Part shown: positions 1,433-64,000 of the stretch, piece by piece
How positions within the stretch are numbered: the stretch's first letter is position 1
Layout: each line of letters begins with the position of its first letter
Source of the DNA: Isurus oxyrinchus
Taxonomy: Eukaryota
NCBI GenBank assembly: GCA_026770705.1
Contig: JANJGN010000009.1
Location: 163,370,001 to 163,434,000 of the forward strand
DNA length: 64,000 nt
Direction: 5' to 3'
Notes under the pieces: model-generated
The model's input: the letters and a program-made list of their open reading frames with translations, nothing else
What the model was told of the DNA's origin: nothing
Databases searched by the model: none
Made by a program: the position numbers and the translations under genes

Positions 1433-1531
1433 AATTCCTTGTAACATTTACATTAGACAATTATTTCGATGTGAGAAACAAGAGCTGAGTGTCTGGAAAC
1501 AAGTTCTGTCCTGATCTTTGTGAACAAAACG

Positions 1532-1568
1532 ATGTGGATTTTGATTCTCCTCATTAGTTCTCTGCCCG
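1532..1568 (+). CDS. Gene A exon 1, signal peptide MWILILLISSLP
   Basis: ATG, hydrophobic leader, phase-1 donor G|gtgagt; joins in frame to exon 2 (VSGA-LW). Confidence 0.88.
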
Positions 1569-13500: not shown

Positions 13501-16500
13501 ACCCAAGGCCCATCTGCTCTCTCAGGTGTTGTAACAGATCCCATAGTGACATTCATAGAAGATCAGGGCAGTTCTCGCTTGAGACCTGGGCAACATCACT
13601 AAACAAAACAAATTATTTATTCATCCATCTAATTGCTATTTGTGGGAGCATGCTGTGTGCAAATTGAATGCCACATTTGCCAAATTACAACAGTTAAGCT
13701 GCATTGAAAATATTCATTGTTTGTAAAGTGCTTTGGGATGTCCTGAGGTCACGAAAGCCACTTTATAAATATCTACCTTTAAATATTTCTTTAAACAAAT
13801 GGCCAATAATCAATTGTGAACCAACACTGTCCCTTGTCTATTCTCTGTTTCACAGTCTGATTTACATTGTGCTCGGAGTGCTGGGGGGCATTCTTGTGGT
13901 GTTTGCTGTTTCTCTACTTCTGTACCTGAGGCAAATCAACAAGGGTGAGTTTCTATTTCTCTTGAATCATTTCATTATATGGCAATAATTTGCTGCAGAA
14001 TAGAAAGAATATACAGTTTGTTGGATCAATCAACAATCACCCATGACCCTAGTATTCTCATTCTAGTCTACACATATTGAACATGGGGCTGAATGTTTCT
14101 CTATTCGAGCGGGTGCACACCAGACCCAAACGAGAGTAAAATAGTGTGTGATGAGGTCAGACGAAACCTCATCAATGGGCAGGATGGGGTTTTGACCAGT
14201 GATTAAAGCAAAAAATTTGAGAACTCATATTTAAATGGCCATGGTCATGTGACAGAGTCACATGAGGGGACATGTTTCCATTAGTTTTCAATTCTTTATT
14301 TTGATTGTTCAAAATCTTCAGCTCCCTGAGGCAGCTCTGAGACTCAGGGAGCTTTCACTGTGAGCACGCGCACACATGCACAAACTTGCACGCTTGCCCT
14401 CCTCCCACCATCACACCAGCAGTGCTGAGCATTGCAGCGCGTATTATGCACTGACTGGCCATTAATTGTCCAGCCCGTATGAAATCGATGTTGGGGCCTG
14501 ATTCGGGGCAGTGGTCGGCTTCACAAGCACTCCTGAGCCCACCTGCCATGCCCACCCGACAAGGGCAAAATTCTGTCCATGGAATAATTAAGTTGAGTAT
14601 TGCTGATAAAAAATACATTTGAACAGATGAACAAGGAGCAGGAGTAGGCCATTCAACCCCTCGAGCCTGCTCCATTATTCAATAAGATCATGACTGATCT
14701 GATGGTAACCTGAAATCTGCATCCCAGCTACCCCCCCAGTAACCTATCACCCCCTTGTTTACCAAGAATCTATCCACCTCCCCCTTAAAAATATTCAAAG
14801 ACTCTGCTTCCTCCACCTTTTCAGGCAGAGAGTTCCAAAGATTCACGACCCTAGGAGTGAAATAATTTTGCCTCATCTCCATCTTAAATGGGGGCGACCC
14901 CTTATTTTTAAATAATGACCCCTAGTTCTAGATTCTTCCACAAGAGGAAACATTCTCTCCACATCCAGCCCATTAAGACCCCTCAGGATTTTATGCTGTT
15001 GAAGCAATCAGCACTCTCTTCTCATGCAGTATAAATTGTTGCTCCCTTTATTGTTGGTATTCTTGCAAACTGTCCTGATGAGAACAAGGCAAAAAGCTTT
15101 GACAGCTCGTCTGTTTGAGTGAGTAAAAATTGGGCCTCTGATTTCACCCTGTGATGAATTGCTTGACCTTCCATCAATGACACGACATAACAGGTACTTG
15201 TATTCAGGATAGAATTGATCAGTTTTTGAAATGCTCAATCCTAAACACACGGGAGTTAATTTTCTCTTTCACATCACGGGTGTTAATCTGTCAGAGTGCT
15301 ACGTAGAAATTAATGGAATGAAATTTGGGTGCATTCTCTAATAGACAATCTGTTCTGTCAGACAGAAAACGTCATATGCTGGTAGTGTAGTTGCTGGTTT
15401 CTGGTGTGTGTGGCCTATCTTACCGAGAGAAACTTGTGTTACTCTGTTACTTGCTTTAAACTGCTTTATTAACACTGTATTTAAGATAGGTTACAGAGTA
15501 GGTATGCCTCCCCTGAGTACAGAGTGTTCCATCCACTCTCCCAGGTAAATAGCACATGACTGCCAATGTCGTTGATACATCATGGTGTACATCACTCATC
15601 AGCATAGCTATTCTATTATCCCATTACACTACAAACACTTTTGTCATGCTATGTATAATTACCAGGCTGATTGTTCATTCCATGTTGGAAATCATTGGTG
15701 CAATGCAGATGAACGTATTTCCATGAATGTGGATCAATGTCAGGTTTAGCACGCTTGCAATACATGTTTAGTTTAGAGATTTTAAACATATTAACCATTC
15801 CTTGTTACTGCTCTTTCAACAGTTACATTGTAATTTTTCAGGTACAAACTGCATTCTAATTCATCGGAGAGACAAGACTCTCCATGATAATCAGGTAAGG
15901 ATATAAACATTACTTCTCTGAATACTGTTTGGAAATTTGCAAGTTGGTGGATATAGAATTTACTAAGAACTTACAGCCATTTGGCCCATCTGCACGAGGC
16001 TGGTTTTTATGCTCCACACGAACCTCCTCTCACCCCTCTTCATCCCACCCTATCAGCATATCCTTCTGTCCTTTACTCTCTCATGTGCTTATCTAGCTTT
16101 CCTTTAAATGCAGCAATCCTATTGGACTCAACTCCTCCCCAGGGAAGGAATAAGGAATTCAGAAGAAACTTCTTTACCCAGAGAGTGTCAGAACCTGAAC
16201 TTTGTTACTATAAGGCAAAGTTCAGGCAAATACCATAAATAAAGCTGGATAAAGCTGGATAAGCAGTTGAGGGAGAAAGTAATAGAAAGATATTTTGAAG
16301 AGGTTGGATGAAGAGGGGTGGGAGGAGGCTTGTGAGGAGAATGATACTGGTATAGACCCATTGGGCTGAATTGTTTGTTTCTGTGCTGTAAATAATTTTT
16401 AATATCTTGTAATCCTTTATAAACTGATTTATAATAATGGATACATAGCTTTCTCCTCATAACAGCACAAGTCACCATTCAGGCTAATCAAAAATAAATG

Positions 16501-16837
16501 CAATCTTTTTTTAAATATATTTTAGGAATTGGCAGCAGAGGAAGAGGACACTGTGTATGCAAAAGTAAACCACACTCAAAGGAGCTCGGCAGGAACACAC
16601 AGAGAGGGAACTGCCGAGTTGAATAATGAGGAAATCACGTATGCAGCAGTGCAGTTGCAAAAGAAATCGTCTACACAGAGAGGTGAAGGGACAAGTCACT
16701 CAGTTAACAACCCGGACAGTGTCATCTACAGTGGAGTCATGATTCACAACCAGCCCACAAAGAAAAACCCTAAAACTCCATTACATGATACTCCCCAGGA
16801 ATCTGAAATGGCAATTTATGCTACCGTTACTCATTAG
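1532..16837 (+). CDS. Gene A: CD300/pIgR-like (MDIR-type) inhibitory Ig-superfamily receptor, 7 coding exons, 415 aa
   Basis: Exons 1532-1568, 3428-3742, 9619-9942, 12242-12359, 13856-13944, 15842-15894 and 16526-16837 all have GT-AG boundaries. Phases are compatible (1,1,1,2,1,0) and total 1248 nt open to TAG. Architecture: SP-IgV-Ig-S/T stalk-TM-tail with 4 Tyr motifs. Confidence 0.92.
3428..3742 (+). CDS. Gene A exon 2, IgV domain of CD300/pIgR/TREM type
   Basis: Acceptor ctcctcag. Motifs ITIECHY, KYWC-x6-C (extra C-C' cysteine pair typical of CD300/pIgR) and DTGWYSC. Donor G|gtacat. Confidence 0.95.
4020..4792. mobile_element. MITE-like non-autonomous Harbinger-type element
   Basis: Termini gggctggatattc...gaaatccagccc. 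The B copy (~39873-44865) is split by the Penelope insertion. Confidence 0.55.
4793..6600 (-). mobile_element. Harbinger-type DNA transposon fragment (Myb/SANT-like ORF 3' half)
   Basis: Homologous to 56450-57900 (REHQEG...LRLQG...TEVNTGRMAAAMETL); degenerate. Confidence 0.7.
5020..5377 (+). mobile_element. Two tandem 5'-truncated Tx1-like non-LTR retrotransposon tails (5020-5145, 5161-5377)
   Basis: ORF2 end AVSGGTVETFRARW...GCFIHPLNHILV* plus a T-rich 3' UTR. Flanked and separated by three copies of ctacatctyctcaac. Confidence 0.7.
6831..7710. mobile_element. Possible solo LTR
   Basis: Termini tgttatgg...ccataac; non-coding; no TSD confirmed. Confidence 0.3.
9619..9942 (+). CDS. Gene A exon 3, second Ig domain (C2/I-like, FcR-like spacing)
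   Basis: Acceptor ttccaacag. EPVSVPVL...VSCESVQGSLPIQYTWY...YYCTASN. Donor G|gtaagt. Confidence 0.93.
11270..11690 (+). mobile_element. Deu-domain SINE (SacSINE1-like), degenerate; mirror copy ~34125-34550
   Basis: Core cagcactgaggtagtgct...gatgaggtattaaactgagg...ggtagatgtaaa. Confidence 0.6.
12242..12359 (+). CDS. Gene A exon 4, Ser/Thr-rich stalk
   Basis: Acceptor tttcaacag. GPDYFCEDSTTVSPTIHLTSTDIISTTNRSTPSDPENAE. Donor AG|gtacaa; phases fit both flanking exons. Confidence 0.85.
13350..13770 (+). mobile_element. Deu-domain SINE; mirror copy ~32020-32445
   Basis: tRNA-like head gctcagtggtaacac..., core tactgagggagtgctg, tail gtaaagtgctttgggatgtcctgagg. Confidence 0.7.
13856..13944 (+). 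CDS. Gene A exon 5, transmembrane segment
   Basis: Acceptor tttcacag. SLIYIVLGVLGGILVVFAVSLLLYLRQINK, with no charged residue in the TM. Donor G|gtgagt. Confidence 0.92.
14086..14579. mobile_element. MITE-like Harbinger-type element; B copy 31021-31710 is ~190 bp longer
   Basis: Termini ggggctgaat...aaaattctgtcc (B: gggcagaatttt...attcagcccc). Confidence 0.55.
14625..14990 (-). mobile_element. CR1/HER1 LINE 3' end; mirror copy ~30612-30975
   Basis: EMRQNYFTPRVVNLWNSLP motif plus a HER1-type tail. Confidence 0.85.
15382..15633 (-). mobile_element. Short solo-LTR-like element; mirror copy 29967-30219
   Basis: Inverted termini gtagtgta...tacactac and an internal AATAAA. Confidence 0.4.
15842..15894 (+). 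CDS. Gene A exon 6, membrane-proximal cytoplasmic
   Basis: Acceptor tttttcag. GTNCILIHRRDKTLHDNQ. Donor CAG|gtaagg; bridges phase 1 to phase 0. Confidence 0.85.
16526..16837 (+). CDS. Gene A exon 7, cytoplasmic tail with ITSM/ITIM motifs
   Basis: Acceptor ttttag. Motifs TVYAKV, ITYAAV, VIYSGV and AIYATV, then TAG. Confidence 0.92.
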   Translation, partial: ELAAEEEDTVYAKVNHTQRSSAGTHREGTAELNNEEITYAAVQLQKKSSTQRGEGTSHSVNNPDSVIYSGVMIHNQPTKKNPKTPLHDTPQESEMAIYATVTH

Positions 16838-28763: not shown

Positions 28764-29075
28764 CTAATGAGTAATGGTAGCATATATTGCCATTTCAGAT
28801 TCCTGGGGAGTATCATGTAATGGAGTTTTAGGGTTTTTCTTTGTGGGCTGGTTGTGAATCATGACTCCACTGTAGATGACACTGTCCGGGTTGTTAACTG
28901 AGTGACTTGTCCCTTCACCTCTCTGTGTAGACGATTTCTTTTGTAATTGCACTACTGCATACGTGATTTCCTCATTATTCAACTCGGCAGTTCCCTCTCT
29001 GTGTGTTCCTGCCGAGCTCCTTTGAGTGTGGTTTACATTTGCATACACAGTGCCCTCTTCCTCTGCTGCCAATTC
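28764..29075 (-). CDS. Gene B exon 7, tail with ITSM/ITIM motifs
   Basis: Motifs TVYANV, ITYAVV, VIYSGV and AIYATI, then TAG. Confidence 0.92.
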   Translation of the reverse strand, partial: ELAAEEEGTVYANVNHTQRSSAGTHREGTAELNNEEITYAVVQLQKKSSTQRGEGTSHSVNNPDSVIYSGVMIHNQPTKKNPKTPLHDTPQESEMAIYATITH

Positions 29076-32000
29076 CTAAAAATATTAAAAAAATGATTGC
29101 ATTTATTTTTGATTAGCCTGAATGGTGACTTGTGCTGTTATGAGGAGAAAGCTATATATCCATTATTATAAATCAGTTTATAAAGGATTACAAGATATTA
29201 AAAATTATTTACAGCACAGAAACAAACAATTCAGCCCAATGGGTCTATACCAGTATCATTCTCCTCACAAGCCTCCTCCCACCCCTCTTCATCCAAACTC
29301 TTCAAAATATCTTTCTATTACTTTCTCCCTCAACTGCTTATCCAGCTTTATCCAGCTTTATTTATGGTATTTGCCTGAACCTTGCCCTATAGTAATGAAT
29401 TTCAGATTCTGACACTCTCTGGGTAAAGATGTTCCTTCTGAATTCCTTATTCCTTCCCTGGGGAGGAGTTGAGTCCAATAGGATTGCTGCATTTAAAGGA
29501 AAGCTAGATAAGCACATGAGAGAGTAAAGGACAGAAGGATATGCTGATAGGGTGGGATGAAGAGGGGTGAGAGGAGGTTCGTGTGGAGCATAAAAACCAG
29601 CCTCCTGCAGATGGGCCGAATGGCTGTAAGTTCTTAGTAAATTCTATATCCACCAGCTTGCAAATTTCCAAACAGTATTCAGAGAAGTAATGTCAATATC
29701 CTTACCTGATTATCATGGAGAGTCTTGTCTCTCCGATGACTTAGAATGCAGTTTGTACCTGAAAGATTACAATGTAACTGTTGAAAGAACTGTAACAAGG
29801 AATGGTTAATACGTTTAAAATCTCTAAACTAAACATGTGTTGCAAGTGTGCTAAACCTGACATTGATCCACATTCATGGAAATACGTTCATCTGCATTGC
29901 ACCAATGATTTCCAAGATGTAATGAACAATCAGCCTGGTAATTATACATAGAATGACAAAAGGGTTTGTAGTGTAATGGGTTAATAGAATAGCTATGCTG
30001 ATGAGTGATGTACACCATGATGTATCAATGAAATTGGCAGTCATGTGCTATTTACCTGGGAGAGTGGATGGAACACTCTGTACTCAGGGGAGGCATACCT
30101 ACTCTGTAACCTCTCTTAAATACAGTGTTAATAAAGCAGTTTAAAGCAATTAACAGAGTAACACAAGTTTCTCTCGGTAAGATAGGTCACACACACCAGA
30201 AACCAGCAACTACACTACCAGCATATGACGTTTACTGTCTGACAGAACAGATTGTCTATTAGAGAACGCACCCAAATTTCATTCCATTAATTTCTACGTA
30301 GCACTCTGACAGATTAACACCCGTGATGTGAAAGAGAAAATTAACTCCCGTGTGTTTAGGATTGAGCATTTCAAAAACTGATCAATTCTATCCTGAAAAC
30401 GAGTTCCTGTTGTGTTGTGTCATTGATGGAAGGTCAAGCAATTCATCACAGGGAGAAATCAGAAGCCCAATTTTTCTCACTCAAACAGACGAGCTGTCAA
30501 AGCTTTTTGCCTTGCTCTCATCAGGACAGATTGCAAGAATACCAACAATAAAGGAAGCAACAATTTATAGTGCATGCGAAGAGAGTGCTGATTGCTTCAA
30601 CAGAATAAAATCCTGAGGGTTCTTGATGGCCTGGATGTGGAGAGAATGTTTCCTCTTGTGGAAGAATCTAGAACTAGGGGTCATTATTTAAAAATAAGGG
30701 GTCGCCTCCATTTAAAATGAAGATGAGGCAAAATTTTTTCACTCCTAGGGTCGTGAGTCTTTGGAACTCTCTTCCTGAAAAGGTGGTGGAAGCAGAGTCT
30801 TTGAATATTTTTAAGGGGGAGGTGGATAGATTCTTGGTAAACAAGGGGGTGATAGGTTACTGGGGGGGTAGCTGGGATGCAGATTTCAGGTTACCATCAG
30901 ATCAGTCATGATCTTATTGAATAACGGAGCAGGCTCGAGGGGCTGAATGGCCTACTCCTGCTCCTTGTTCATCTGTTCAAGTGTATTTTTTATCAGCAAT
31001 ACTCAACTTAATTATTCCATGGGCAGAATTTTGCCCTTGTCGGGTGGGCATGGCAGGTGGGCTCAGGAGTGGTTGTGAAGCCGACCACTGCCCCGAATCA
31101 GGCCCCAACATCGATTTCACATGGGCTGGACAATTAATGGCCAGTCAGTGCATAATATGCGCTGCAACGCTCAGCACTGCTGGCGTGAGGGCGGGAGGAG
31201 GGCAAGCGTGCAAGTTTGTGCATGTGTGCGCGTGCTCACAGTGAAAGCTCCCTGAGTCTCAGAGCTGCCTCAGGGAGCTGAAGATTTTGAACAATCAAAA
31301 TAAAGAATTGAAAACTAATGGAAACATGTCCCCTCATGCGACTCTGTCACATGACCATGGGCATTTAAATATGAGTTCTCAAAGTTTTTGCTTTAATCAC
31401 TGGTCAAAACTCCATCCCGCCCATTGATGAGGTTTCGCCAAAAGTGCAAAGGCTGATTGGCCGATTCGACCACAAACCAACCGAACAGTTGGACCGGCAG
31501 CAAAAAATTCAATTCTATTAATTGATTAAGGGCCTTAATAGGTTGCTTCATTGTCAGCGGGTGTTCTGCCGCCTCTCGCACATACCTGCAGAGTGAAATA
31601 TCACCAGAGTGTACGATGATGTCCAGACGCTCGTCTGACCTCATCACGCACTATTTTACTCTCGTTTGGATCTGGTGTGCACCCGCTCGAATAGAGAAAC
31701 ATTCAGCCCCATGTTCAATATGTGTAGACTAGAATGAGAATACTAGGGTCATGGGTGATTGTTGATTGATCCAACAAACTGTATATTCTTTCTATTCTGC
31801 AGCAAATTATTGCCATATAATAAAATGATTAAAGAGAAATAGATACTCACCCTTGTTGATTTGCCTCAGGTACAGAAGTAGAGAAACAGCAAACACCACA
31901 AGAATGCCCCCCAGCACTCCGAGCACAATGTAAATCAGACTGTGAAACAGAGAATAGACAAGGGACAGTGTTGGTTCACAATTGATTATTGGCCATTTGT

Positions 32001-35000
32001 TTAAAGAAATATTTAAAGGTAGATTTTTATAAAGTGGCTTTCATGACCTCAGGACATCCCAAAGCACTTTACAAGCAATGAATATTTTTGATGCAGTGTA
32101 ACTGTGGTAATTTGGCAAATGTGGCATTCAATTTGCACACAGCATGCTCCCACAAATAGCAATTAGATGGATGAACAAATAATTTGTATTGTTTAGTGAT
32201 GTTGCCCAGGTCTCGAGGAAGAACTGCCCTGATCTCCTATGAATGTCACCATGGGATCTGTTACACCCACCTGAGAGAGCAGATGAGCTTTGGGTTTATC
32301 ACATCTGAGAGGTGGCACCTCTAACAGCACAGCACTCCCTCAGTAGTGCACTGGAGTGTCAGCCAAGATAATGTGCTGAGGTCTCTGGAGTGGAATTGAA
32401 CCCACAGCCTTTGACACATAAGGTGAGTGTGTTACCACTGAGCCCTGTTTAATACTGGGTCAGTTTTAATTATTGAAATCCAAATGCAAGAATACCAGAT
32501 GATCCCTGAAAAAATGGAAGTAATAACTGTTTCATACATATATGGATTTCATATTCAGATGATCTTTGTAGTCAACTTTATACAACAGATCAGACATAGA
32601 GATTTGTCTTAAAATAAAAATCAGATACTTTCAATACTTCTTAAATCATTGACAATAATCTGGATAAAAGTAAGTGCACTGCATGTGCTAGAAATATGAA
32701 TGGAAAACAGAAGATTCTGGAAACATTCAGCAGCTCAGTTGGGATCTGTGGGGTGAGTGGACCTGTTTCACTTCGTGTGTGGACTAGAATTCTGAAGAAG
32801 TGTCTGCACCCAAACCATGAACGTGTTTATTTTCTCCACAGCTGCGGACATACCTGCTGTCCATTTCCAACTGTCCCTCTTTCTGTTTGACATTTAGTTG
32901 GCGTTTTCTCTTTATCACCATTGTAACTTCAAAGACCCGATTCCTGAGTGTTTACATCGGACTACAATTTCTGCTACTTATTGTCGACAGCTCAGTCTAA
33001 TCATATGGAAACAGGATCAGAGCTGCAAGATGTCTCTCATTAGTGAAACCAAGGGATGAGCCGATATATCACGCTAATTCTTCCTTTTCATCAGCCAGAA
33101 TACAACTACTCTGTCAGTGTAGACAGCAGCAAGGTAAGTTTGACAAGTACAACTCCTCACACACTGTGAGATTACCTTAGCGGTGAAGTAATCAAGGTGA
33201 ATAAGGCAAAAAACACCATCTGAGCAGCAACACAATGGAAAAGCTCATTCCTTGCTTGTATTTTCCAACAGAAAAATGCACCCTCATTAAAAAGCTAACA
33301 CAACAGCATGATATAAACCCAGCCACCATTTCCATTCTGATGAGCTACTTTCCAAACTAATGAACAACCTTCACTCCTTTGGCCAATCGTATCTCTCACA
33401 TATGGAAGCAATGCCAATCCATGAGAACATTGTACCTTACAGCATTTTTGGGATCTGAAGGTGTGGCTCGATTGATAGTGGAAATTATATCTGTACTTGT
33501 CAAATGTGTAGTTGGTGATACTGTTGTAGAAACATCACAAAAATACTCAGGTCCTGTTGAAACAAGGGAATAACAGTCAGATTCAGCTCATTTTCACTTG
33601 TCGTCAACTGAGAGAGCATCATTGTCAAATGGAACCTCATTAATTGAGGAAAAGCCTGGCTGGTAGAATTGATTTCTGTGTAATTTACCCCTCTCTGGTC
33701 ACAAGTGGAGAGGTCGCAGATACTTGGTGGTGATCTATCTTTACTGGTAATTACACTTTCTTTCCTATCTCTGAGAGTTGGTGGGACAGAGTTACTAGTG
33801 GGCCAGTTAAGGGCTCAGGTTGGTGGACTACAATCCAGAGATACACTTGTTTGACATGAATTTCATGTGCACACAATAAACAGTCACATCCTAATACTGG
33901 CAATGGTCCCTTTCTGCCCTTCGGGGACAGTTTTCTGAGCTTGCAGTAAAGATGAGAATCTTCACCCACTGACCGTGAATGCCTCAAACCTGCCAGTGAT
34001 TTTCTGACCATTTAATTATAATGACCCTCCGTGCTGCTGGGACTGGCTCCTCCCTCCCCCCCTCCAGTTTGCACTCAGATAATTGGATAAGATGCATTTT
34101 AATAAATCGTCTGTTTCAAAAGGTAAGAAATAAGTTGAGTTGATTCATCACCTTTCACAACCTTGGGATATCCTAAACTATTTCAGAGCCTATGAAGTAC
34201 TTTTCTGAAGTAAAGCCACAGTTTTAATATCAGGAAAAATGAAAGTGCATTCGTACACAACAAAGCCCCACAAACATCAGTAAAACATTCACTAGGTGAT
34301 CTGTCTTGTAGTGACATTAACAGGCTCAAAAGACCAAATAGCCTGCTCCTGCTCCCTATTTGTGTGTATTGGTTGAGGAATAAAGGCTTCAAGGACACCA
34401 GGAGAACTTCCCTATTCTGTGAATAATACCCTGGAATTGTTTACATCTACCTAAGGGGGATGTGGATCCTCAGTTTAATACCTCATCTACACAGCAGCAC
34501 CACCACCAGTATAACACTACCTCAGTGCTGGACAGTGGTATCAGCCTGAATTTTAACTCTTATGGGGAACTTGAACATAGAATACATTGGCATCAAAGGT
34601 CAGAGTGCAACTGAGTCCCTGCTGACAACTCCAGTACAAACACTTACAGTTTACAGGTGTAATTTCTACCTGCTGCTGACAGCCTTTGGTCTGAGGCTTG
34701 TGACAGTGGGATTTTATGGTCTGCTGGAGTGCATGGAGTTTAGAATGGCTGGCTGCATTTTACAGCCCAGTCCCTGGCGCAATGGGGGTGTAAAATTCCA
34801 CCCTTCTTCCCTGACAACTGAGGCAAGAGACCACATGACCAGAGTCAATATATTTGCATATGTAAATTCCTGTCTCCTGCTGGTCAGGGGAAAATGTGAT
34901 TCTCTTTGTTTTGTGCCCATGTTGGTGTTTCTCGGTGAACATGCTGCACCCACTCTGCAGAAAATTGAACCGCTACATTCAAATAGGCTAAAGTCCTCCT

Positions 35001-38000
35001 TGTTTCAGAACCAGGGTCATTGTTTTATGGGGAGGGAATAGTTAATTTTTTATACAGGATAATTTGAGATTTTGTCTGGAATGATGGAATTTTTACAACA
35101 TAGGGGAGGGAATTCAGCCCATCGCTCCAATGCTGGTTCTCTGAATGATCTCCTCATTTAATTCCATTTCATTGTCCTTTTCCCACACCCTCATACATTT
35201 GTTTCCCTTTTAAAATCTATTATTAAATTTGTTTGTAAACTTATTTCAGTTGGGCATTCCATGTCCTAAAAACAGTTTGCATCAATAAAATTCTCCAAAT
35301 TTCTCCCTTTGTCCTTTTAGTGATAATTTTAAAGTTAATGCTCTCTTGTTGCTGACTCACTGACTAGTGGAAATAGTTAGAGTTACCTTATCCAAATTTC
35401 TAACAATTTCCACGTCCTCCAGCTGGTCATTCACCTCAGTTGTGATGATACTTTCCTCATGACTAAAACCTCTCATCCAAGGGTTCATTTTAATTCAATT
35501 CTTCTCTATTCTATCAGTGATATCCTTCCCAAACTAGGACACAACAGTTGGAGGTTGCATTTCACAATTCTATCTGCTGGAAATAGACAAATTGCTTTAT
35601 GAAAGCTCTGTCAATCAAATGCTATTTTGATTCGATGGGTTTATTGGAGATTCGGCAATATTTTTGCATGTTTTGGGGATATTTTCTGATCCTGTCCATT
35701 TTTCATGAAAAATGCAACTTAGTGACCTTGTTCAGAATGTTTGAGGAACCAGAGAGACTGAATTTGGCCAGTTGCAATTTCTCAGATTGACTGAAGGAAC
35801 TGAAACAGTGACCAGTTGGATAGACATGAATTTAAAACATTCATTCACCACATTGTTTGTAGAAAGTAACACTTACCAATGTTTCCAATTTGTATCACAT
35901 AACTGCAGCTTTTCGTTGTTACATTCATGAGTGTTAAGTTAACAGTGACAGTGTCACTGGATTTTACTCCCTGATTATTCGAGGCTCTACAGTAATATTG
36001 ATGATGTTGCTGTTTGAAGGATTGACAATGTAGATCCAGTTTATTGGTGTCAGAGATCTTTGAATCTTCAGACAGGGTCTTTTCATACCATGTGTACTGA
36101 ATGGGAAGGGATCCGTGGACAGACTCACAGGAGACGGACACTGAACCCCCAGAACATGAGACATTTAGCGGTGATGAAAATCTAAGCACAGGAACAGACA
36201 CGGGTTCTGTTGGAAGGAAAGAAACATTCAGATACTGAACATTTAATAATCAAATACTCTTCAAACTTTGCACTTCATTTCAGCCAGGCTCTGCCATGTT
36301 GGAATCTCACCAACACATCTACCACTCTATGGGGTGGATGTTAAATTTGGGTTTGGGAACTGGACATGGGAGATAGTTTCAGGTCCTGACACCATTCACC
36401 ATTCTTTTGGCATGCCAACTGCAATTTTCAATGTTCCAGCCAATCAAAAGCCTGGAACTGGTCTCACCATCCAATCAGGGACAGAGGGCGGGTTCCTGAT
36501 GCAAGAGGGCCTCACCAGGTGAGGTGGGAGTTGCTGACCTGAGCATGGAGACAGCAAGGGGAAAGTCCAGGGAAGTTTATTTTATGTTTCAAAACCCGGC
36601 AGCTGCCGGGCCATGATCCTGAAGGGGCAATGTGGTCTGCTAGCATTGCTGAATGAAATCCCAGTGGGTGCAGGAATGGGTCTTTAATTGGCCCCTTTGG
36701 TAAATGTTATTTCCTAAGTTAGCTGCCCACCACTTGACTGCAAGCCGCCCGCTTTCTAAATATTTGGGGCTTGGGATTGTAATGGTAAATTGGCATGGAG
36801 ACCAGCGGTGCCAAATGTCATACCCACCCGCCTCTAATCCTGACACCATACTTTTTAAAAATCCATCCCCATATCTCTCCATCCTCTTAGAGGCCTGAGT
36901 TACCCTTTCAGCCATTATATCAGAACAAATCAGGTCTCCAGATCAGAACAGCAGCTATGATACTGAGAGTATGTTAACATGAATATCATGGTGAACAATA
37001 TCTCTTTGTAGCTGGTAGTGAGCCTCCAATGCTGTTTCATTGTTTGTGAGTTGAATGTGAATTAGTTGGAGAGAATCTTAGAAAAGCAAAGGGGAAAATG
37101 AGGGCAAAATGTTGTCAGATATCGGTTACATGTTTTGTAGCTTTGGATAAGAATGTAAATGTGATTGGCTCTGGTTCTCTGCATGCTGCGATAGAACACT
37201 TCAACCCTGGTACGTGGAGACGAGAGGGGGGACTGTGTGTGGGGTGGTGAGAAAGCTGGAAATACCAGGAATGTTGAGTTTGTGCCGAATTTAACAGCAA
37301 AATCTCACCAGAATTCTTGCACACTGATTGAATGTTTGGCTGGTTTCTAAGTAGGAACGTTATGGTAAAAGTTTGGAAATTGGTGGGAATTTGTCCTCGG
37401 AGCACAGCAGCGAGGAGGGAGTCAGGGTGACTTTGCTGCTTGGGGCAGGATTGGCCAATCATGGGGAGGGAGAAATTGTATAAAACATTTGCCTGGGGGT
37501 GGGGGTGAAGCTTTCGTGTGTCTCCTGGATCACAAGCTGTGCTGGAGAAGGTTCTGGATCCAGCAAATCCCATCATGCATCAACCCGATGCAGGATGGGG
37601 GAGGGGAATTAAAATTCCCTCTTTGATCAAGGGATTAGCCAGAGAAAAGTGACACTTTCGCCAACATTTTTAATGAGGTTTGGCAGGCTTTCACTGCTTT
37701 CACTGTCACAAACTGTACTCTGAAACAACACAGGTCACAGTTTGCCTGGTGATTGGAAAGTGTCTCTTTGAAATGCTAACTGTTTATGAGCTTGTTTCAC
37801 AGCACATTGTTACTCACAAGGCCCAGACCACTGAAAAATTAACTGGGGCTCCAGAACATGGAAAAGGGATTCGGACATGCAGCCCCTTCAGCCTGTTCCA
37901 CAATTCAATTAAGTCACAACTGACCAGTATCTTCTGTCCATTTACCTACCGGGGTCCCATAACCCGAATATTGCTACCAGATAAAATCTGTCAATCAGTT

Positions 38001-44000: not shown

Positions 44001-47000
44001 TCCCAACAACCACCTCCCCACTTCTCTATCCACTCGCACCCCCACCCCCACCCCTTAGACAAGCTTATATTTCACCCCTCTCTTCTTTTTACTTAGTTCT
44101 GTTGAAGGGTCATCAGGACTCGAAACATCAACTGTGCTCTTCTCCGCCGATGCTGCCAGACCTGCTGAGTTTTTCCAGGTATTTCTTATTTTTTGTTTTG
44201 GATTTCCAGCATCCGCAGTTTTTTGTTTTTATTTTTGTTTTTAACTCCCCAACCTGGCTGCCTCCATTGTGGAGATGGACACGTCCTACTCCTCTGCAAT
44301 TTTCATGGATTTGGGCCAAGTTTTGAATGAGTCGTAGTCCAAAGCCCCTCAGATGAGCTGTAAACACTGGTCTGCATGAGGGGTCCTTTTAACAATTAAG
44401 TTCAAAAGGTCCATCTCATGCCCCCTATGTCAAGTCACACCCCCATCCAGCCCATTTGGCCCTTCATGCCCCCTATATCGCTTTACCCATGCCTTATACC
44501 CCCTCATGCTCCTGACTTCAAGCTGTACACTTCCACCCAACTCCAAGCCCCCTCATGACAAATTTTCCCCTTACACCCACCCCCTTTATGGGCTGTGAGG
44601 GGTGAGGGGTGAAGGGCCTTTGTGTTTTGAGCTTAGCTGTTACAAAGTCCAAGGGCATTAAGGAGGGGCCTTTTAAACAGCCCGTCTCCGCAGCCGGCAG
44701 CCCCTGTGGCTGCCTCTGCATTTCTTCCTGGTGTGGCTGGCCAGACTGCAGCCCGGGCACAGCTCCCAGCAATGGGAATCCCACCTTTGTGGGCACTTTC
44801 TTCCAAGGCCGAGCGGGGAATTTTCCGAATTGCCCCTACCCGCTTTGAGGCTGAATATCCAGCCCAATGTCTCAACAATTAATAAAGAGGCTTCTTTTAC
44901 CATCAAAACAACTTCTCAATTTCCGTTTAGTTCACTTGTAAAGTTCAACTCTGACATGTCGGACAGGCCATGAATTGGGTTTGGGTAACATGAGTCGGAT
45001 TTCCCGACCACTGCCCTTTACCTTTAAGACTCTGCATTGCTGTGGAGCCTCGGGATATCGGAGCTGTCATGTTTCCTCCCAGATAAAACATTGAGCAGAC
45101 ATTTCAGTCGAGAATAATAAAGAAAATCAGTAAGAAATGTACCGTAAGATATTTGTAGCCAGACAGCAAACATTGAATCGAGGAGGCCAGGTTTGTCAAT
45201 ACCACAGCTGTACCATCCTGTATCTCTTGAGCGAAGATCCTCCATAGTAACAATAAATATTCCTTGTGACTTGTTATCTGTGACCGATATTCTTCCATTT
45301 CGCCAATTTGTCGATGCTACAACATTACACTGGCGACTCTTGCCAAGACACCAATATTTTATATGTGACTTGTACCACTGTGCATCATAGTGACATTCTA
45401 TTGTGATCGCTCTTCCCACAACTCCTGTTACTCTGTCTTTTGCCCACAATGCACCTGAAACTGAGGAGACAACATTTCAGGAATTGAACAGGAAATAACT
45501 GCTTAATTCAAAGAGATACATTTTAATGAGTTAAATTCCATCAAGTTTGTGATGAGAGTAAACTTTCATATAGACACTTATCAGAGCCTCACTCTGTTCC
45601 AAAGCACATCACAGACAATGATTTACTTGTGAGATATTTGGGGCATTTTCTTGACTTATTGGCAGGGGCTGGTAGAGTGAGGGGAACCTGGAAATTGGGG
45701 TTCTGCCTCATACTGTGGGGTTTCACCCTAGACTGCGTATGACATCATCAAGAGGTTCCACAGCCAGAAACCAGCCTGACTGACAGGCCTGATTTGCAGT
45801 CGGTTGGGGAGCAGTGTGGAGGGGGTCACAGGAGCCGACAGTTCCCTGCTCTGATCTGAGGTGGGTGGGGTGCGGGAGATGGTTGGATCATTGCAGGAGG
45901 GCGTGTTCAGATCTTGAATGAGTTAGGGACATCCAAAGGTAGGATTTGAAGGCCTTGAAAGTTTGAGAGGTTGTGTGATAGGTGGCCTTGTAGGATGGAT
46001 GGATTCCTGAGGTAGGGATTTGGATGCTTTGACTTGAATATTCATGAGACCAATGGCCTTGCTGGGAGAGAAACTCATGCTGTGGGGAAAGAGTTTGCAC
46101 TAACATAAGAAAAGAGAGATTGAAAATAATTAAATGGCTAGAGAGAAGTGAAGGAAAGGAAAAAGATACAGGAAAAGTTACAGATGAAAAGGGAATGGGA
46201 AAGAGATCAGATCAGAAAGAGGAAGGATTGAAAAGAAGAAGATTGCCAAACAGACAGAAACATGATTCAGTTTCCTGTCCATAAGTACATCAAGTATTCT
46301 GCATTAAATTGATCAGCTAGAGGCACAAAATATTTTGGGGAGGTGGTTAAGAGCAGATGGGTCTGGGAGTTTAACATTGTGTGTTATAAAATACATTCAT
46401 TGAAAATGATGGAGAGGTGGCAATACTGAGTGACGAGCAAAATCTAGTTTCTTAAAGTTAAAGAATGAACAAGAAAAGGCTACTTATGAGAAGAGTGATG
46501 TAGACCAACCATCTACCAGTGAGGAACAGTGTCACTGAGAGAGCCTCATAACACAATATTTCATCAACTGTACTTTAAAAAACAGAAATATTTGCAAACT
46601 TGGGACATGTTTTATTTGTGGGATTATTACCGTTCCAGTCTTCAGTGTATACTGGACATCAGATTATATTGAAAATTATCAATTAAAACAGGTTTTCATT
46701 TTCAAAATGTTGCTTGCATAGATTTCTGAAAATTAAATTCTCCTTTACTTATCATTCATAGTTAATAATGCAGTTCAGTTTATTTGTTAACTATTCCCAT
46801 GGTGTGATAGTAAATTCACAGTATAATAATATACTTCACAATTATTATTCATTTGGTTTTGCTGACTATTTTGTGCCTTTAGACTTAGGAGACTTCCCAC
46901 ATCTAGAGACGGATGCGGCAGACAAAGCACATGTTTACTTTTGCTTTCCAAAGCTTGTTTACCCCGGAACAGGTCACTAACACCGGAGACAACAGAATGA

Positions 47001-47364
47001 GCGGCACCACTCCACATCAAACATGTCGGACTGGGATCTCTCACCCTCTTCCCACCAGCCTTAGGTCTGTTGGAAGATGTTCGGGTTGATAATCAACCTG
47101 TTGGGCTTGGTTAGAACGCGCCTTCCATTCTCAACAAGAACAGGAGTTCTTGACAAAGCTTCAAAGACAGAGCTTCTGGCTCAGATACAGAGACACTACC
47201 CACTGAGCCCAAGACCTCTTTTGTGCCTTTGCATGTCTCCAAATATTTTAACATCTCCTGTATAACCAGCGTACGAGAGTTAAACCAACTCAGATTATTG
47301 GAATATCCAGCTCTGGCTGTCACTCACCGGGCAGAGAACAAATGAGGAGAATCAAAATCCACAT
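28764..47364 (-). CDS. Gene B: inverted paralog of gene A, inhibitory Ig-superfamily receptor, 7 coding exons, 418 aa
   Basis: Exons (minus strand) 47364-47328, 45460-45143, 36206-35877, 33553-33436, 31939-31851, 29758-29706 and 29075-28764. Splice sites are intact; 1257 nt open. Confidence 0.92.
29706..29758 (-). CDS. Gene B exon 6, cytoplasmic
   Basis: GTNCILSHRRDKTLHDNQ; AG/GT intact. Confidence 0.85.
31851..31939 (-). CDS. Gene B exon 5, transmembrane segment
   Basis: Nucleotide-identical to gene A exon 5. Confidence 0.92.
33436..33553 (-). CDS. Gene B exon 4, Ser/Thr stalk
   Basis: GPEYFCDVSTTVSPTTHLTSTDIISTINRATPSDPKNAV; paralog of 12242-12359. Confidence 0.85.
35877..36206 (-). CDS. 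Gene B exon 3, second Ig domain
   Basis: Paralog of 9619-9942, two codons longer. Confidence 0.93.
38688..39872 (+). mobile_element. Harbinger-type fragment, B-arm copy (truncated)
   Basis: Reverse complement of 4793-5948. Confidence 0.7.
39233..39645 (-). mobile_element. Two tandem Tx1-like tails in the B arm (39233-39449, 39465-39645)
   Basis: WAPRGLGCFIDPFNHILV* end; three copies of gttgagragatgtag at 39218, 39450 and 39646. Confidence 0.7.
40082..40120 (-). ncRNA. Minimal type I hammerhead-ribozyme-like motif in Penelope pseudo-LTR (best-preserved copy)
   Basis: gtt-CUGUUGA-a-GGGUC augag GACUC-GAAACGUC-aau; the core has U in place of canonical A6. Confidence 0.55.
42110..43366 (+). pseudogene. 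Penelope reverse transcriptase ORF (frameshifted before the endonuclease)
   Basis: 418-aa ORF with PLE RT motifs. Small deletion after GTHMSP, frameshift at a C run (~43182-43190), stops in the GIY-YIG part. Confidence 0.85.
45143..45460 (-). CDS. Gene B exon 2, IgV domain
   Basis: ECHYDAQWYKSHIKYWCLGKSRQC...DTGWYSCGIDKPGLLDSMFAVWLQISY; splice sites conserved. Confidence 0.95.
47328..47364 (-). CDS. Gene B exon 1, signal peptide MWILILLICSLP
   Basis: Reverse-complement match to 1532-1568; donor gtgagt. Confidence 0.88.
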
Positions 47365-47825
47365 CGTTTTGTTCACAAAGATCAGGACAGAACTTGTTTC
47401 CAGACACTCAGCTCTTGTTTCGCACATCGAAATAAGTGTCTAATATAAATGCTACAAGGAACTTAAATGAGGAAGAAGATAGCAGGAAGACAGATCATGA
47501 AGACATATCAAGGCAGCTGATGAAATCTGACCCCTAAGAACTTGAACTTCTGTCAGTTATATTTAACAAAAGAACTAAACTAATTTTCATTGAAAGGATA
47601 TAAAATCCTGAAAACAAGAATGTTAAAAAGTTAGAACATATGGATAATGATGAGCTGAGCTAGTATTGATACTGAATTGTGAGGTGAGTTAGAACAGGAA
47701 CCCCCTCCCAATTTCCACAAACCCCACAGGAACAGAAGTATTTTTTTCATTTCTGAAATTTAGTTGTCCAATTGAATACAGAGATTTCTTAATATTTTGG
47801 TTTTATTTGCTAATCTTTGTAGATC

Positions 47826-59519: not shown

Positions 59520-59852
59520 TGAAGCGATTGGTTTCCAATAAATGAACCTTTCAAGTTGCTTATTTCTTAAAGAATTTGATAGTCTTAAAACAAGAAATAA
59601 AGTTGTGTAGACACTAAGGCAGCAAACAGAGAAATTATTGTCAGGATGTAGATATACAAATTGAAGTTCGCAGCCTCATTTTGCTTTTTGATTGCTCCAC
59701 TAATTTAATGGTCAAAATTATTTGATGAGAAAATCGATTTTTATTCTGTAGAATTATTAAAAGAAATTCAAAGCTCGACGAATAATGAATATTTTGTCAG
59801 GATGAAAAATTCCATCAATGTAGATGTAACCCCGGAATCTTCATTTTCCCTC

Positions 59853-59894
59853 TTAGGTCAAGCTCTGAGGATTTGATTCGTTGAGTGTCTGGAA
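59853..59894 (-). CDS. Candidate terminal exon of gene C (FQTLNESNPQSLT*)
   Basis: Acceptor gattttcag, phase 0 matching the gene C TM exon donor, in non-repetitive DNA. Too short to verify. Confidence 0.3.
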   Translation of the reverse strand, partial: FQTLNESNPQSLT

Positions 59895-60399
59895 CTGAAA
59901 ATCACCAGATTAATTGAGACTGAGAACGATGCATTATTTTACATGTGAACAGAATTCTGGCTATGCCAACAAATCGAGGCAAAGCATGTGATGAGCTGGA
60001 GCTGTGGCAACATCACACTCCTCACCCATTGCATGTGTGCTGGGAAATGTTATCAGTTGTGCCCCTCTTGAAGAGATGTAACACCATTTTCTCATGGGTA
60101 ACTAATGTTCCCCTGCAACTGGCATTATGGGTAGAAATTGATTGCTGTGGCTACTTTATTAAATATATTTTATACAGTGCAATTGCTACTTCCAGTAACA
60201 ATTCTCTTGGGTCTGTATCTCAGTCTCCTGTTGCAGTCTGTATAATTTTACGTCTCCTTGTGTTCTTGTTGACAAACAATCATCCCTGGTGCTCTGTTAG
60301 ATTCTGCCTCCATTTCCTCGCTTCCTTTTCTTGTATCGATTATTTTGTAAGATTAGATTAAACTATGGAATGTTTCTATTATGGATGGGTTACATGGGA

Positions 60400-61615
60400 T
60401 CATAGTAACAGGGACAATTGAAGGGAAGTTTAAAACATCTAAAGGAAATGAGAGAGCAGAAGTGCAGGGTAGTGAAGAGGCGAATGGTAATCAAAGTATG
60501 ATGAGAAGCGGCAGGACAAGGAGCAGAAGAGTGCAGCAGAAATGAGAACCAGAATGGGCAATAATGGTAAACAATCCAAGCTTAAGGCTTGTTATCTGAA
60601 TGCACGCAGATGAGTTGACGGCACGAATAGAAATATATGGATATGACTTGATAGCCATGACAGAGACATGGTTGCAGAGTGACCACGACTGGGAATTCAA
60701 TATTCAAGGGTATTCGACAATCCGGAAAAAATGGCAAAAAGGAAAAGGAGGTGGGGTAGCTTTGTTAATAAATGAAGGTATCAGTGCGGTGGTGATATAG
60801 CTGGCATAGATCGTGATGTGGAATCAGTTTGGGTAGAAATAACAATTAGTAAGGGGAACGAGCCATGCGTTGGACTCATCTATGGGCCTCCAAAGAGTTT
60901 GCTCACTGTAGGACAAAGCATAAACTGGGATATAATGTAGGCATGTAAGAAGGGTTCTACAATTGTCATGGATTATTTTAATCTGCATATTGACTGGAGA
61001 AATCAGATAGGCAGGGCTAACTTGGAAGACAAATTTGTAGAGTGTACCAAGGATAGTTTCTTTCAGCAATATGTTGCATAACCTACTTGGGAACAGGCTA
61101 TTTTGCATCTAGCAATGCGTAATGAGGTACGATTCATAAGAGATCGTGTAGTTAGGGATCCTCTAGGGGATAGCGATCACACAACATTGTAGAATTTGAA
61201 ATTCTGTTTGAGGGTGAGCAGCTCGTCTCTAAAACCAGTGTCCTCAACCTAAATAAGGCCAATTACAGAGTTATGAAGGAAGAGTTGGCTGGAGAATAGA
61301 CTAACAGGAAGGTCAGTGGGTGAGCAGTGGCAGACATTTAAGTAAGTATTTCATAACGCTCAGAAAAAATTTATCCCGCTCAAAAGGAAGGACTCGATGA
61401 GAAGGATGAACCACCCATGGTTAACGACGGCAGTCAAGGAGAGTATCCAATCAACAACTAAAGTATAAAAAGGGGGGAAAACTAATGGTATGCTTGAGGA
61501 TTAGGAATTTTTTAGGAACCAGCAGCGGATGACCAAAAAACGAATAAAGAGGGAGAAAGATGATTATGAGATGGAATGGCAAGAAATATTTAAACAAACA
61601 GCAAGAGCTTCCACG
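60400..61615 (+). mobile_element. CR1 LINE, endonuclease region of ORF2 (decayed)
   Basis: YLNAR..DELTARIEIYGYDLIAMTETWLQ...KGGGVALLI; later motif LGDSDH. Confidence 0.85.
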
Positions 61616-62395
61616 GGTCTGCGCGCGATTCCAAGGGAGTGTCCGTGACTCCTATATTCTCAGTAAGTGTCAGATCCCTGACATCATCCAGCTTGTTCTG
61701 CAGGAATACAGATGGAGAGAGCGTAAGCAGGGTGCCTGCCAGGTCACATGAGGAGGGCACCCGGCACGTGTGGGTGGTAAGTGGTGCCATGGATGAAGAC
61801 AGGAACGGCAGGGCAGAGGAAGGTGTGTGTGAGAGCGTGAATGGTGATGTCCTTTGAACTGGTATTGAGTGAGATCCCTGTGAATGTGTGATGGGTTTTT
61901 GAGTTGTGAGTGATGAGAAAAGTGATTTAACCTAGCAGAAATCAGGTGACCATTCATCCTCTTTCAGCGCTGGGTGGCCGTCCTCTTTAGCAGTGCAATG
62001 GCACTGACCACTGCTGCCACCACCACCCATGCTAGATTTGTTGCCATGCTTGTTGGTCTTCGCCTAGAATTGGGGTAGAGGACTTCACGGCAGCTCTCAC
62101 AGTGCCCAGTAGGCTGAGGGTGGCAGTGCTAAATTTTGGATGCAACATGTTTCCTCCCTTTGGCAGCTATGAATTCCTAGCAGTTTCTGATGCCTTAGAG
62201 AGAGCTATCTCTCTGCAGGAACGGCCTTTAAATAGGGCGTCTGGATAAATGAAGGCCTGAGGTGACGGTGGGGTGGCGCGTCAGAGGCCTTCCCACCAGC
62301 GACCCGGTGTGTTTCCAGTGAACGCATAATTAATGAGGTGGGACGTGCCAGGAATAGGATAATAAGGTGTGAAAATCTGCCATTGCAGCCGGCGG
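61616..62395 (-). mobile_element. Harbinger-type 5' fragment (Myb/SANT-like ORF start)
   Basis: Resembles the reverse complement of 55750-56520; degenerate. Confidence 0.5.
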
Positions 62396-62701
62396 ATAAT
62401 ATCCCAGAAGGGAAAAACAGTAAAAAATGGGAAATAAGAATACGGGCCTGAGTGGGGTTCATATACTTTAACATGGAACACCAGTAAAAACTGGGAAATC
62501 AGGGTCTTGGCCTGTGCTGTTTTTTCACACCCGGGATGTCCTTTTTCCCACTCACTACCGCACTTTGTGCAAATCTCAGATGATTCTGCCCATAGAATCT
62601 GTAAAACACCTTGTTTCAATCTGTGGACCTTAACATCAATGCAAGTTTTTCTTGGCAATATCTGTGATCAATGTTTTTGAAATAATTGATGGAGAATTTA
62701 C

Positions 62702-63626
62702 TGTCATGAAAGTATAATAATTTTCATAATATTTTCTGCTTTATTGTGGAGTCGGTTTATGGGGGTAAGTGTTTGGGTCTGTCTGTGTGAGATTTAATTA
62801 CATTTGGAATCAGGTAGATGGCATGATATAACTCAACAAAAGAAGCTAGGTATTTGACATGCTAATGAGTAAACATGGATACTGGTTTAGCAAGTAAAGT
62901 GTAAAGGGAATTTGCCTTTTTAGATAAATGAAGGGAGATTTGGATTTCAAATGTATTTTAGTCTCTTTACAATTAGGCAGCTAAGCAAGATGAAGGAATG
63001 TGTTTCTTTATCTCAAAGGTTACTGACAATATATAGTATCGACATGAAAGTTTTTACATTGTGAGGAAGACACAGTTTCAAAGGTATCTGAAACAATAGG
63101 GTTTACATGTTAAATAGAGGGAAACATATATAAAGGAGAATGAGGCTATGTGTCAGGAGAAGTCCATATGAGACCTAACAGATGTGTTTGAAGTAGCCTT
63201 AATGAAGCCTCCAGCATTTGTGCATAAGCCTGCTGTCTAACGAAACTGAAGCTGGTGAAAGCCATTTGGAATTCCACTGTCTAGATCATTGTGTCAATTT
63301 GCTGGATCTGCTTGAAACCTAATATCTATTCTTTGTACAGTTGCCTTAAAGGAGGTGTAACTGGGAGTGAGGCTAATTAGGAATTTTACGAGTTATTATA
63401 GAAGAAATTAGTAGACTTATGTATGTAATTGAAATCTATCTTTTGCTAATAAATATATTTAACAATATATTTTTTAAATCTCTAAAAGTTTGGTAGACTT
63501 ATGGTGTCTGAATTCAGTGCATGCATCTCATAATAAATATAAATTGCAAAACCGTTGTGACAGCTCGACCAAGTTTCACTCATGGATTTGGTCTGCCTGA
63601 CACACATCATCTGCCACATCATAACA
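62702..63626 (+). mobile_element. Solo LTR in the gene C intron, ending 45 bp from the TM exon
   Basis: TGTCATGA...TCATAACA termini; near-perfect 4-bp TSD ttac/ttgc; AATAAA at ~63448. Confidence 0.65.
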
Positions 63627-63671
63627 TTGCAAACTGCCCATAATGATTCTTATACAGTCCATAACTCTCAC

Positions 63672-63762
63672 CTTAGATTTTCTCGTACACCATGTGCCCG
63701 AAACAGCACAAATCACCAGGAGAGTAAAGAGCACCCAGCGTATCACATCCCAGATAATGCAA
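63672..63762 (-). CDS. Gene C (partial): TM exon of a probable activating-type Ig receptor; upstream exons lie beyond the window
   Basis: Strong acceptor tttctcttctcttttgaacag, in phase 2 like the TM exons of A and B. Encodes CIIWDVIRWVLFTLLVICAVSGTWCTRKSK. Donor AAG|gtgaga. Confidence 0.75.
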
Positions 63763-64000
63763 CTGTTCAAAAGAGAAGAAATATCAAACCATTTAAATGA
63801 AATGAGACTGTTTCATTTTTGAAACATGACTCTCCGCTTTACACTGTAATTTTTTGCAGCAACATAAAGTAGACAAGGGACTTTAGCTGAAAGAATCAAC
63901 TAAAGTTCTACTTATCAACTTCATGATCATTAGATAAAAATCAAACGAAGCAAATTTCTTTAGCATGTCCATAATGTCTAACTGTAAGGCTAAGCGGAAT

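What the first reader, a model, noticed from the sequence alone, without database searches (positions are those of the whole stretch)
59853..63762. Probable activating counterpart: a paired inhibitory/activating receptor cluster in a cartilaginous fish
Seen: a TM exon WDVIRWVLFTLLVICAVSGTWC with Asp/Arg at the outer end of the helix, in the same acceptor phase as the A/B TM exons. No ITIM exon was recognised downstream, and a candidate 13-aa Tyr-free terminal exon lies at 59894-59853. Established: an N-terminal TM Arg marks FcR-gamma-coupled activating receptors (LILRA, PIR-A, GPVI, FcalphaRI), and skate MDIRs include activating and inhibitory forms. Inference: gene C is the activating sibling of A/B. 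Its ectodomain is outside the window, so family membership is unproven.
Basis: partly seen in the sequence, partly recalled or inferred. Interest (0 to 1): 0.7.

Follow-up and report, generated by a model that had tools for sequence, protein, structure and literature searches.

The report
Shark on/off immune receptor array
This is the tail end of an intact, spliced shark immune-receptor gene that is likely an "on" switch, one of 26 near-identical neighbours that carry the same kind of sensing domain on either a short, likely activating tail or a long, likely inhibitory one; the family was already known from skates.

Summary
Confirmed and extended. The two exons are the 3' end of an intact 311-aa gene (leader, V-Ig, C2-Ig, stalk, TM, 17-aa Tyr-free tail). 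RNA-derived contigs splice the TM exon straight to the 13-aa exon, with no ITIM exon. The gene is an MDIR: 54% identical to skate MDIR5, including the WxVxRW membrane motif. It lies in a 0.9-Mb array of 26 full genes, 14 with the Arg TM and 12 with ITIM tails. Some genes of opposite type have identical V exons; trees show tail swapping near the C2-stalk intron; V exons show excess amino-acid change (pN/pS 2.2). The Arg is conserved across sharks and rays; the Asp is not. An FcR-gamma gene is present in the genome, so FcR-gamma coupling is likely (about 0.65) but untested. Earlier AI notes of this scan reported the same receptor kind in other shark genomes (three notes). Part of the gene count may be haplotype duplication. 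Verdict: new member of a known family, with an unusually clear example of paired-receptor shuffling.

The parts
63672..63762 (-). Gene C (g08) TM exon, WDVIRW motif with Arg276 at the outer end of the helix
   Evidence: both ends spliced in contigs
59853..59894 (-). Gene C terminal coding exon, FQTLNESNPQSLT then stop; alternative acceptor 6 nt downstream
59607..59852 (-). Gene C 3' UTR, at least this far (end not determined)
   Evidence: X1 contig covers L111 607-894
63763..64000 (-). Start of the intron leading out of the window to gene C's stalk (G000:C9:163435224-163435107), C2 (163437881-163437552), V (163443157-163442843) and leader (163445056-163445017) exons
47328..47367 (-). Gene B (g07) leader exon
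45143..45460 (-). Gene B V-Ig exon
35877..36206 (-). Gene B C2-Ig exon
33436..33553 (-). Gene B stalk exon
31851..31939 (-). Gene B uncharged TM exon
29706..29758 (-). Gene B first cytoplasmic exon (predicted; matches annotated P0012)
28764..29075 (-). Gene B terminal exon with four Tyr motifs (TVYANV, ITYAVV, VIYSGV, AIYATI)
1529..16837 (+). Gene A (g06), inverted copy of B: leader 1529-1568, V from 3428, C2 9619-9942, stalk to 12359, TM 13856-13944, cytoplasmic exon 15842-15894, ITIM exon 16526-16837

Best explanation
Gene C is an intact, spliced MDIR-family receptor with a short Tyr-free tail and a conserved membrane arginine, and it likely signals as the activating half of a paired system by recruiting the FcR-gamma adaptor. 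Shown: the gene model, the splicing, 14 Arg-tail and 12 ITIM-tail genes with shared ectodomains, exchange of 5' and 3' modules between them, excess amino-acid change in the V exon, and an FcR-gamma gene in the genome. Inferred: Arg276 pairs with the TM Asp of the FcR-gamma dimer, whose ITAMs would recruit Syk, while ITIM siblings would recruit SHP-1/2; unequal crossover near the C2-stalk intron keeps giving inhibitory specificities an activating twin, as expected if microbes exploit the inhibitory forms. The ligand is not identified.
For: Gene model without stops and with canonical splice sites; C2-stalk-TM-terminal exon in one 1031-nt contig (X2 record 7). V domain closest to pIgR and CD300 structures, C2 closest to FCRL5, 54% identity to skate MDIR5 over 298 aa including the TM. 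W-x-[VIL]-x-R-W TMs in 35 of 112 homologues from 15 of 22 species; both TM kinds in 14 of 22 species; 1 of 28 terminal Arg-TMs has a YxxL/I/V motif in its tail. Arg-TM exon under purifying selection (pN 0.050, pS 0.155). [quoted passage not shown] FcR-gamma-like TM exon with the Asp retained on C1723 and C1648. Identical V exons in genes of both kinds; one clade of Arg-tail genes rejected on the 5' module (p-AU 2.6e-171), nearly kept on the 3' module (2 changes). V pN 0.072 vs pS 0.032, bootstrap 0.008.
Against: No experiment on any MDIR adaptor was found in the papers I could read. The N of NxxR is present in only 3 of 37 homologous TMs, and rays mostly have K, so likeness to the proven motif rests on the Arg and its position. 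XFL TM1 and tail share one exon, here they are separate exons, so homology of the modules is not shown. The count of Arg-TMs among homologues used a pattern that requires the Arg. The last, canonical ITAM exon of FcR-gamma was not located in this assembly. A CD3-zeta-like TM exon is also present. The contigs carry a few differences from gene C and may come from a paralogue or a related species.
Confidence: 0.65

Rival explanations
1. Gene C is activating but uses another adaptor (CD3-zeta, an FcR-gamma/zeta heterodimer, or DAP12/DAP10).
For: A CD3-zeta-like TM exon with the same Cys-x-x-x-Asp pattern is on C18. Mammalian CD300/TREM activators mostly use DAP12 (recalled).
Against: DAP12 partners usually carry a mid-membrane Lys (recalled; PMC2413239 notes the KIR2DS TM is unrelated to the N-terminal Arg type). 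Here the charge is an Arg at the outer end. The DAP10/12 family search gave one weak hit with a stop (E 0.41), which is inconclusive.
Confidence: 0.15
2. The short-tailed form does not signal: it is a decoy, adhesion or ligand-capture receptor, and the Trp-Arg-Trp motif only anchors the helix at the membrane surface.
For: Arg and Trp are common at membrane interfaces (established knowledge); the helix stays long enough with the Arg near its edge. As I recall, the original skate paper listed MDIR5 as lacking typical signalling motifs (not readable here).
Against: The inhibitory TM of the same family has no such residue, the Arg is kept in all 14 array copies and in divergent copies found by profile, and activating/ITIM genes are interleaved in similar numbers, as in proven paired families.
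Confidence: 0.13
3. The array size and some identical pairs are assembly artefacts: two haplotypes laid in tandem.
For: Five gene pairs are 99.76-99.93% identical over 15-21 kb, a level compatible with allelic difference; FcR-gamma also appears on two unplaced contigs.
Against: No two genes are identical (closest: 11 mismatches in 16.2 kb); only 8 of 22 intergenic stretches have a near-full-length match and the order is not a simple repeat. Near-identical pairs share tail type, while mixed-type V clades occur three times. Halving the count would not remove the pairing.
Confidence: 0.25
4. The family are immunoglobulin (IgM/IgW) receptors like pIgR or Fc-alpha/mu-R, not pathogen-driven paired receptors.
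For: Best structural-database matches are pIgR for the V domain and FCRL5 for the C2 domain.
Against: The pIgR domain-1 loop SVNRHT aligns to WWYKSHI here, and the V exon is diversifying, which fits a changing ligand better than a constant Fc.
Confidence: 0.15

Closest known systems
Skate modular domain immune-type receptors, MDIR5 (P0070) and MDIR3 (P0039); Cannon et al. 2006, PMID 16738934 (paper not readable here)
   Same: V plus C2 modules, leader, WxVxRW TM with short tail (MDIR5, 54% identity to gene C over 298 aa); uncharged TM with ITIM tail (MDIR3, 45% to gene B over 408 aa).
   Different: Here one V-C2 unit plus a separate stalk exon instead of two or more units; D instead of K before the Arg; a very recent 26-gene array with identical V exons on opposite tails.
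Xenopus XFL receptors and mammalian LILRA2, PIR-A, NKp46, GPVI, OSCAR, Fc-alpha-R (NxxR TM; PMC2413239)
   Same: Arg at the outer end of the TM, short tail, interleaved with ITIM-type siblings in similar numbers; C2 domain is FCRL-like.
   Different: Those have C2-type ectodomains only; here a CD300/pIgR-like V domain leads. Motif is DxxR (N in 3 of 37 homologues) and the tail has its own exon.
CD300 / pIgR-like V-domain receptors
   Same: V domain with the extra C-C' cysteine pair; best PDB matches.
   Different: Extra FCRL-like C2 domain; N-terminal TM Arg rather than the mid-membrane charged residue recalled for activating CD300s.
CEACAM1/CEACAM3 paired receptors (PMC2832619, abstract)
   Same: [quoted passage not shown]
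   Different: Unrelated family; CEACAM activators carry their own ITAM-like motif, and pathogens binding them are known.

Membership tests
MDIR | Ectodomain of CD300/pIgR-like V and C2-type Ig modules homologous to skate MDIRs | tested here: met
   MDIR3 and MDIR5 retrieved by the V exon; 54-60% identity across V and C2; Pfam V-set and Ig_2/Ig_3
MDIR | Large multigene family with activating-type and inhibitory-type members | tested here: met
   26 full genes, 14 Arg-TM and 12 ITIM; family description from PMC3031540 passages
MDIR | TM and tail match a described MDIR subtype | tested here: met
   Gene C TM aligns to MDIR5 WKVGRW
MDIR | Expression in leukocytes or lymphoid tissue | not testable with these tools
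   Runs are coded and carry no tissue; contigs show splicing only
FcR-gamma-coupled NxxR (TM1) receptors | Arg at the N-terminal end of the TM with a short tail | tested here: met
   Arg276, 17-aa tail without Tyr
FcR-gamma-coupled NxxR (TM1) receptors | Asn three residues before the Arg | tested here: not met
   Asp in gene C; N in 3 of 37 homologous TMs
FcR-gamma-coupled NxxR (TM1) receptors | TM and tail on one exon (as in XFL TM1) | tested here: not met
   Separate terminal exon versus PMC2413239 section 6
FcR-gamma-coupled NxxR (TM1) receptors | Physical association with FcR-gamma | not testable with these tools
   Needs co-expression; the adaptor gene is present
Paired receptors (functional class) | Near-identical ectodomains on opposite signalling tails | tested here: met
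   V+C2 protein 100% identical between g30 (Arg) and g12, g22, g24 (ITIM); gene C 97% to g33
Paired receptors (functional class) | Opposite signalling outcomes | not testable with these tools
   Inferred from motifs only
True pIgR | Tandem V domains with the domain-1 Ig-binding loop | tested here: not met
   One V plus one C2; loop not conserved

The most novel reading that the evidence does not exclude
MDIR5-type genes are the main activating arm of the elasmobranch MDIR system, coupling a CD300/pIgR-like sensor and an FCRL-like C2 domain to a two-ITAM shark FcR-gamma; in this shark a recombination zone near the C2-stalk intron works as a standing switchboard that re-pairs every diversifying V specificity with both an on and an off tail. 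This would place FcR-gamma-coupled paired receptors, and their pathogen-driven counterbalance, at the base of jawed vertebrates, where a 2014 survey found neither the adaptor nor such receptors.
Probability: 0.4. Interest if true: 0.6.

Novelty: new member of a known kind. Interest (0 to 1): 0.36.

Why it matters
The family and its on/off design are known, so this is not a new system. Its value is as a test case: intact genes with the same ectodomain on opposite tails, plus a cloneable shark FcR-gamma, make adaptor use and ligand identity directly testable in the oldest jawed-vertebrate lineage. It also corrects a published absence (PMC4016189 found no FcR-gamma, pIgR or FCRL homologues in sharks) and suggests that MDIR5-type receptors are activating.

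Tried and rejected
Complex prediction of the gene C TM with two FcR-gamma TM chains gave no verdict (score 0.02, mark 0.34, alignments not used); it is not evidence either way. A single-sequence fold of the V domain was low confidence (pLDDT 59.9) and was not searched. The TM profile found no meaningful solved structure (best E 0.69). The DAP10/12 family search was inconclusive. No listed run is on record as RNA; I rely only on spliced joints. Read support for gene B's splicing was not obtained, so its cytoplasmic exons rest on splice sites, an open frame and the annotated relative P0012. A Thr/Ser-rich ORF that I first took for a stalk exon lies upstream of the leader and was dropped. The clustering of 23 of 34 variable V codons in loop regions used regions chosen after seeing the data, so its p-value is not used. 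Cannon 2006 and PMC2823954 were not held. Literature searches found no paper on shark MDIR arrays or their adaptor beyond PMC3031540's mention; subscription papers are not searched.

Full report
Observation. The TM exon lies at window 63762-63672 on the minus strand and the 13-codon terminal exon at 59894-59853. A scan for hydrophobic exons of this phase with canonical splice sites found only the A, B and C TM exons in the window. The window is G000:C9:163370001-163434000 of a 4.98-Gb genome; the closest annotated relatives of the V domain are from lamniform sharks (84% and 76%), so the organism is probably one (inference).

Gene C. The upstream exons lie just outside the window: leader, V, C2 and a 118-nt stalk exon. 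Joined, they give a 311-aa type I protein without stops, with Arg276 at the outer end of the helix and a 17-aa tail without Tyr. Contigs of four public runs were laid on the 3' half (RNA status is the tool's guess, but the joints are CT..AC introns). C2 to stalk is joined in 4 of 4 runs, TM to terminal exon in 3 of 4 (X6 at an acceptor 6 nt downstream), and one 1031-nt contig of X2 holds C2, stalk, TM and terminal exon in order. These contigs differ from gene C at a few letters and may come from a paralogue or a related species.

Family. The V domain matches pIgR and CD300 structures best, the C2 domain FCRL5. The protein search returned 112 relatives, all from cartilaginous fish, among them skate MDIR3 and MDIR5. 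Gene C is 54% identical to MDIR5 over 298 aa, TM included; gene B is 45% identical to MDIR3 over 408 aa. PMC3031540 (passages) describes MDIRs as multigene activating/inhibitory receptors. The original paper was not held; my memory that it called MDIR5 free of typical signalling motifs is unverified.

The array. I fetched C9:163.21-164.29 Mb whole and parts of the flanks. From gene A onward there are 28 exon groups: 26 full genes (14 Arg-TM, 12 ITIM), one 5'-truncated ITIM gene and one orphan terminal exon. Twelve of 14 Arg-TM genes assemble without stops (g30 has lost the first terminal acceptor but keeps the downstream one); g17 and g29 have a doubled C2 with a broken first stalk exon. Eleven of 12 ITIM genes assemble without stops in the script; gene A does so after a 2-nt boundary correction by eye. 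Five more diverged groups upstream were left out of these counts. V exons are identical in DNA between g11, g19, g22 (ITIM) and g23, g30, g32 (Arg), and between g20, g25 (ITIM) and g26 (Arg); V+C2 protein is identical between g30 and g12, g22, g24. Gene C's V+C2 is 90% and 91% identical to A and B and 97% to g33. On the leader-to-V module the tail label needs 6 changes and a single Arg-tail clade is rejected (p-AU 2.6e-171); on the later C2-stalk intron and stalk it needs 2. Diagnostic sites place exchanges at several points from C2 to just before the TM exon. Among 18 distinct V exons pN is 0.072 and pS 0.032 (codon bootstrap 0.008; 34 codons vary in amino acid, 2 only silently); C2 shows no excess, the stalk does (0.082 vs 0.017), and the Arg-TM is under purifying selection. 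These are pairwise counts on recombining sequences, not a tree-based test. Caveat: five gene pairs are 99.76-99.93% identical, so part of the count may be a second haplotype; no two genes are identical and the order is not a simple repeat.

The Arg motif. Of 112 relatives from 22 species, 35 hold 37 W-x-[VIL]-x-R-W TMs (15 species); 14 species show both TM kinds; 1 of 28 terminal Arg-TMs has a YxxL/I/V motif after it. The pattern requires the Arg, but profile and homology searches in this genome also found it kept in diverged copies, except one decayed remnant. [quoted passage not shown] Gene C works like these by position of the Arg and the short tail, but fails two membership features (no Asn; tail on its own exon), so shared ancestry of the module is not claimed.

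Adaptor. An FcR-gamma-like TM exon with the Asp lies on contigs C1723 and C1648, and a CD3-zeta-like one on C18. It is identical over 31 aa to an annotated shark FcR-gamma. Five of 7 shark proteins retrieved have two ITAM-like motifs; the exons of the extra motif are in this genome, the last canonical ITAM exon was not located. PMC4016189 (passages) reported no FcR-gamma, pIgR or FCRL homologues in sharks; current annotation and this genome disagree. PMC4536121 gave no passage on sharks.

Mechanism. Most likely (0.65): ligand binds the V domain, Arg276 holds an FcR-gamma dimer, ITAM phosphorylation recruits Syk and activates the cell; ITIM siblings with the same sensor recruit SHP phosphatases. 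Gene structure, splicing, pairing, shuffling and selection are shown; adaptor use, signalling direction and the pathogen-counterbalance rationale (as for CEACAM1/3, PMC2832619 abstract) are inferred. Rivals: another adaptor (0.15), a non-signalling form (0.13); separately, inflated copy number (0.25) and Ig as ligand (0.15).

Novelty. MDIRs and their on/off design are known, and three earlier AI notes of this scan describe the same kind in other shark genomes (none for this place; none by sequence). Seven literature searches aimed at MDIRs or shark receptors and adaptors found no account of such an array, but subscription papers and Cannon 2006 with its supplements were not visible. Verdict: new member of a known kind, interest 0.36.

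Noticed in passing
G000:C1723:88538-90529 and G000:C1648:24424-27727 (L132, L133, L135-L147): Shark FcR-gamma has an extra ITAM-like motif (YEEI-x7-YHEL) before the canonical one in 5 of 7 shark proteins retrieved; the extra exons are in this genome, on two unplaced contigs that may be haplotigs. The final ITAM exon was not found.
   Followed up: partly
G000:C9:163435107-163435224 and array copies: Most Arg-tail genes have a stalk with three Cys (YCCEAC) where ITIM genes have one (YFCD/N); the basking shark Arg-type stalk has one, so this is recent and might allow disulfide dimers. The stalk exon shows pN above pS.
   Followed up: partly
G000:C9:163695127-163716262 (g17) and 164121173-164142638 (g29): Arg-tail genes with a doubled C2 exon and a broken first stalk exon; could encode V-C2-C2 receptors if that exon is skipped.
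   Followed up: partly
window 1-48889 and G000:C9:163456544-163467933: Genes A and B are inverted copies at about 95% identity; B, C and a 5'-truncated ITIM gene (g09) are inverted relative to the rest of the array, with an orphan terminal exon (g10) at the inversion edge.
   Followed up: partly
window 47827-48066 (-) and 791-1069 (+): A Thr/Ser-rich open frame (Val/Pro-rich on the other strand) sits about 500 bp upstream of the leader in nearly every unit; no splice support was sought and it is unexplained.
   Followed up: partly
G000:C9:163250735-163289089 (g02): Diverged V-C2-V-C2 inhibitory-type gene with a stop inside its ITIM exon.
   Followed up: partly
G000:C9:164.32-164.47 Mb (L119-L130): More distant V exons (33-42% identity) with two further Trp-Arg-Trp TM exons (WSILRW, WAALRW): an older part of the cluster.
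   Followed up: partly
P0002, P0009, P0040, P0043, P0046, P0047: Public gene models in other sharks read through the Arg-TM exon into the next gene, fusing neighbours, so database counts of these receptors are unreliable.
   Followed up: no
window 40292-43363, 48688-49281, 53368-54300: Retrotransposon-like reverse-transcriptase fragments (family not tested) and a Pro/Gln-reading minisatellite between and within the genes.
   Followed up: no
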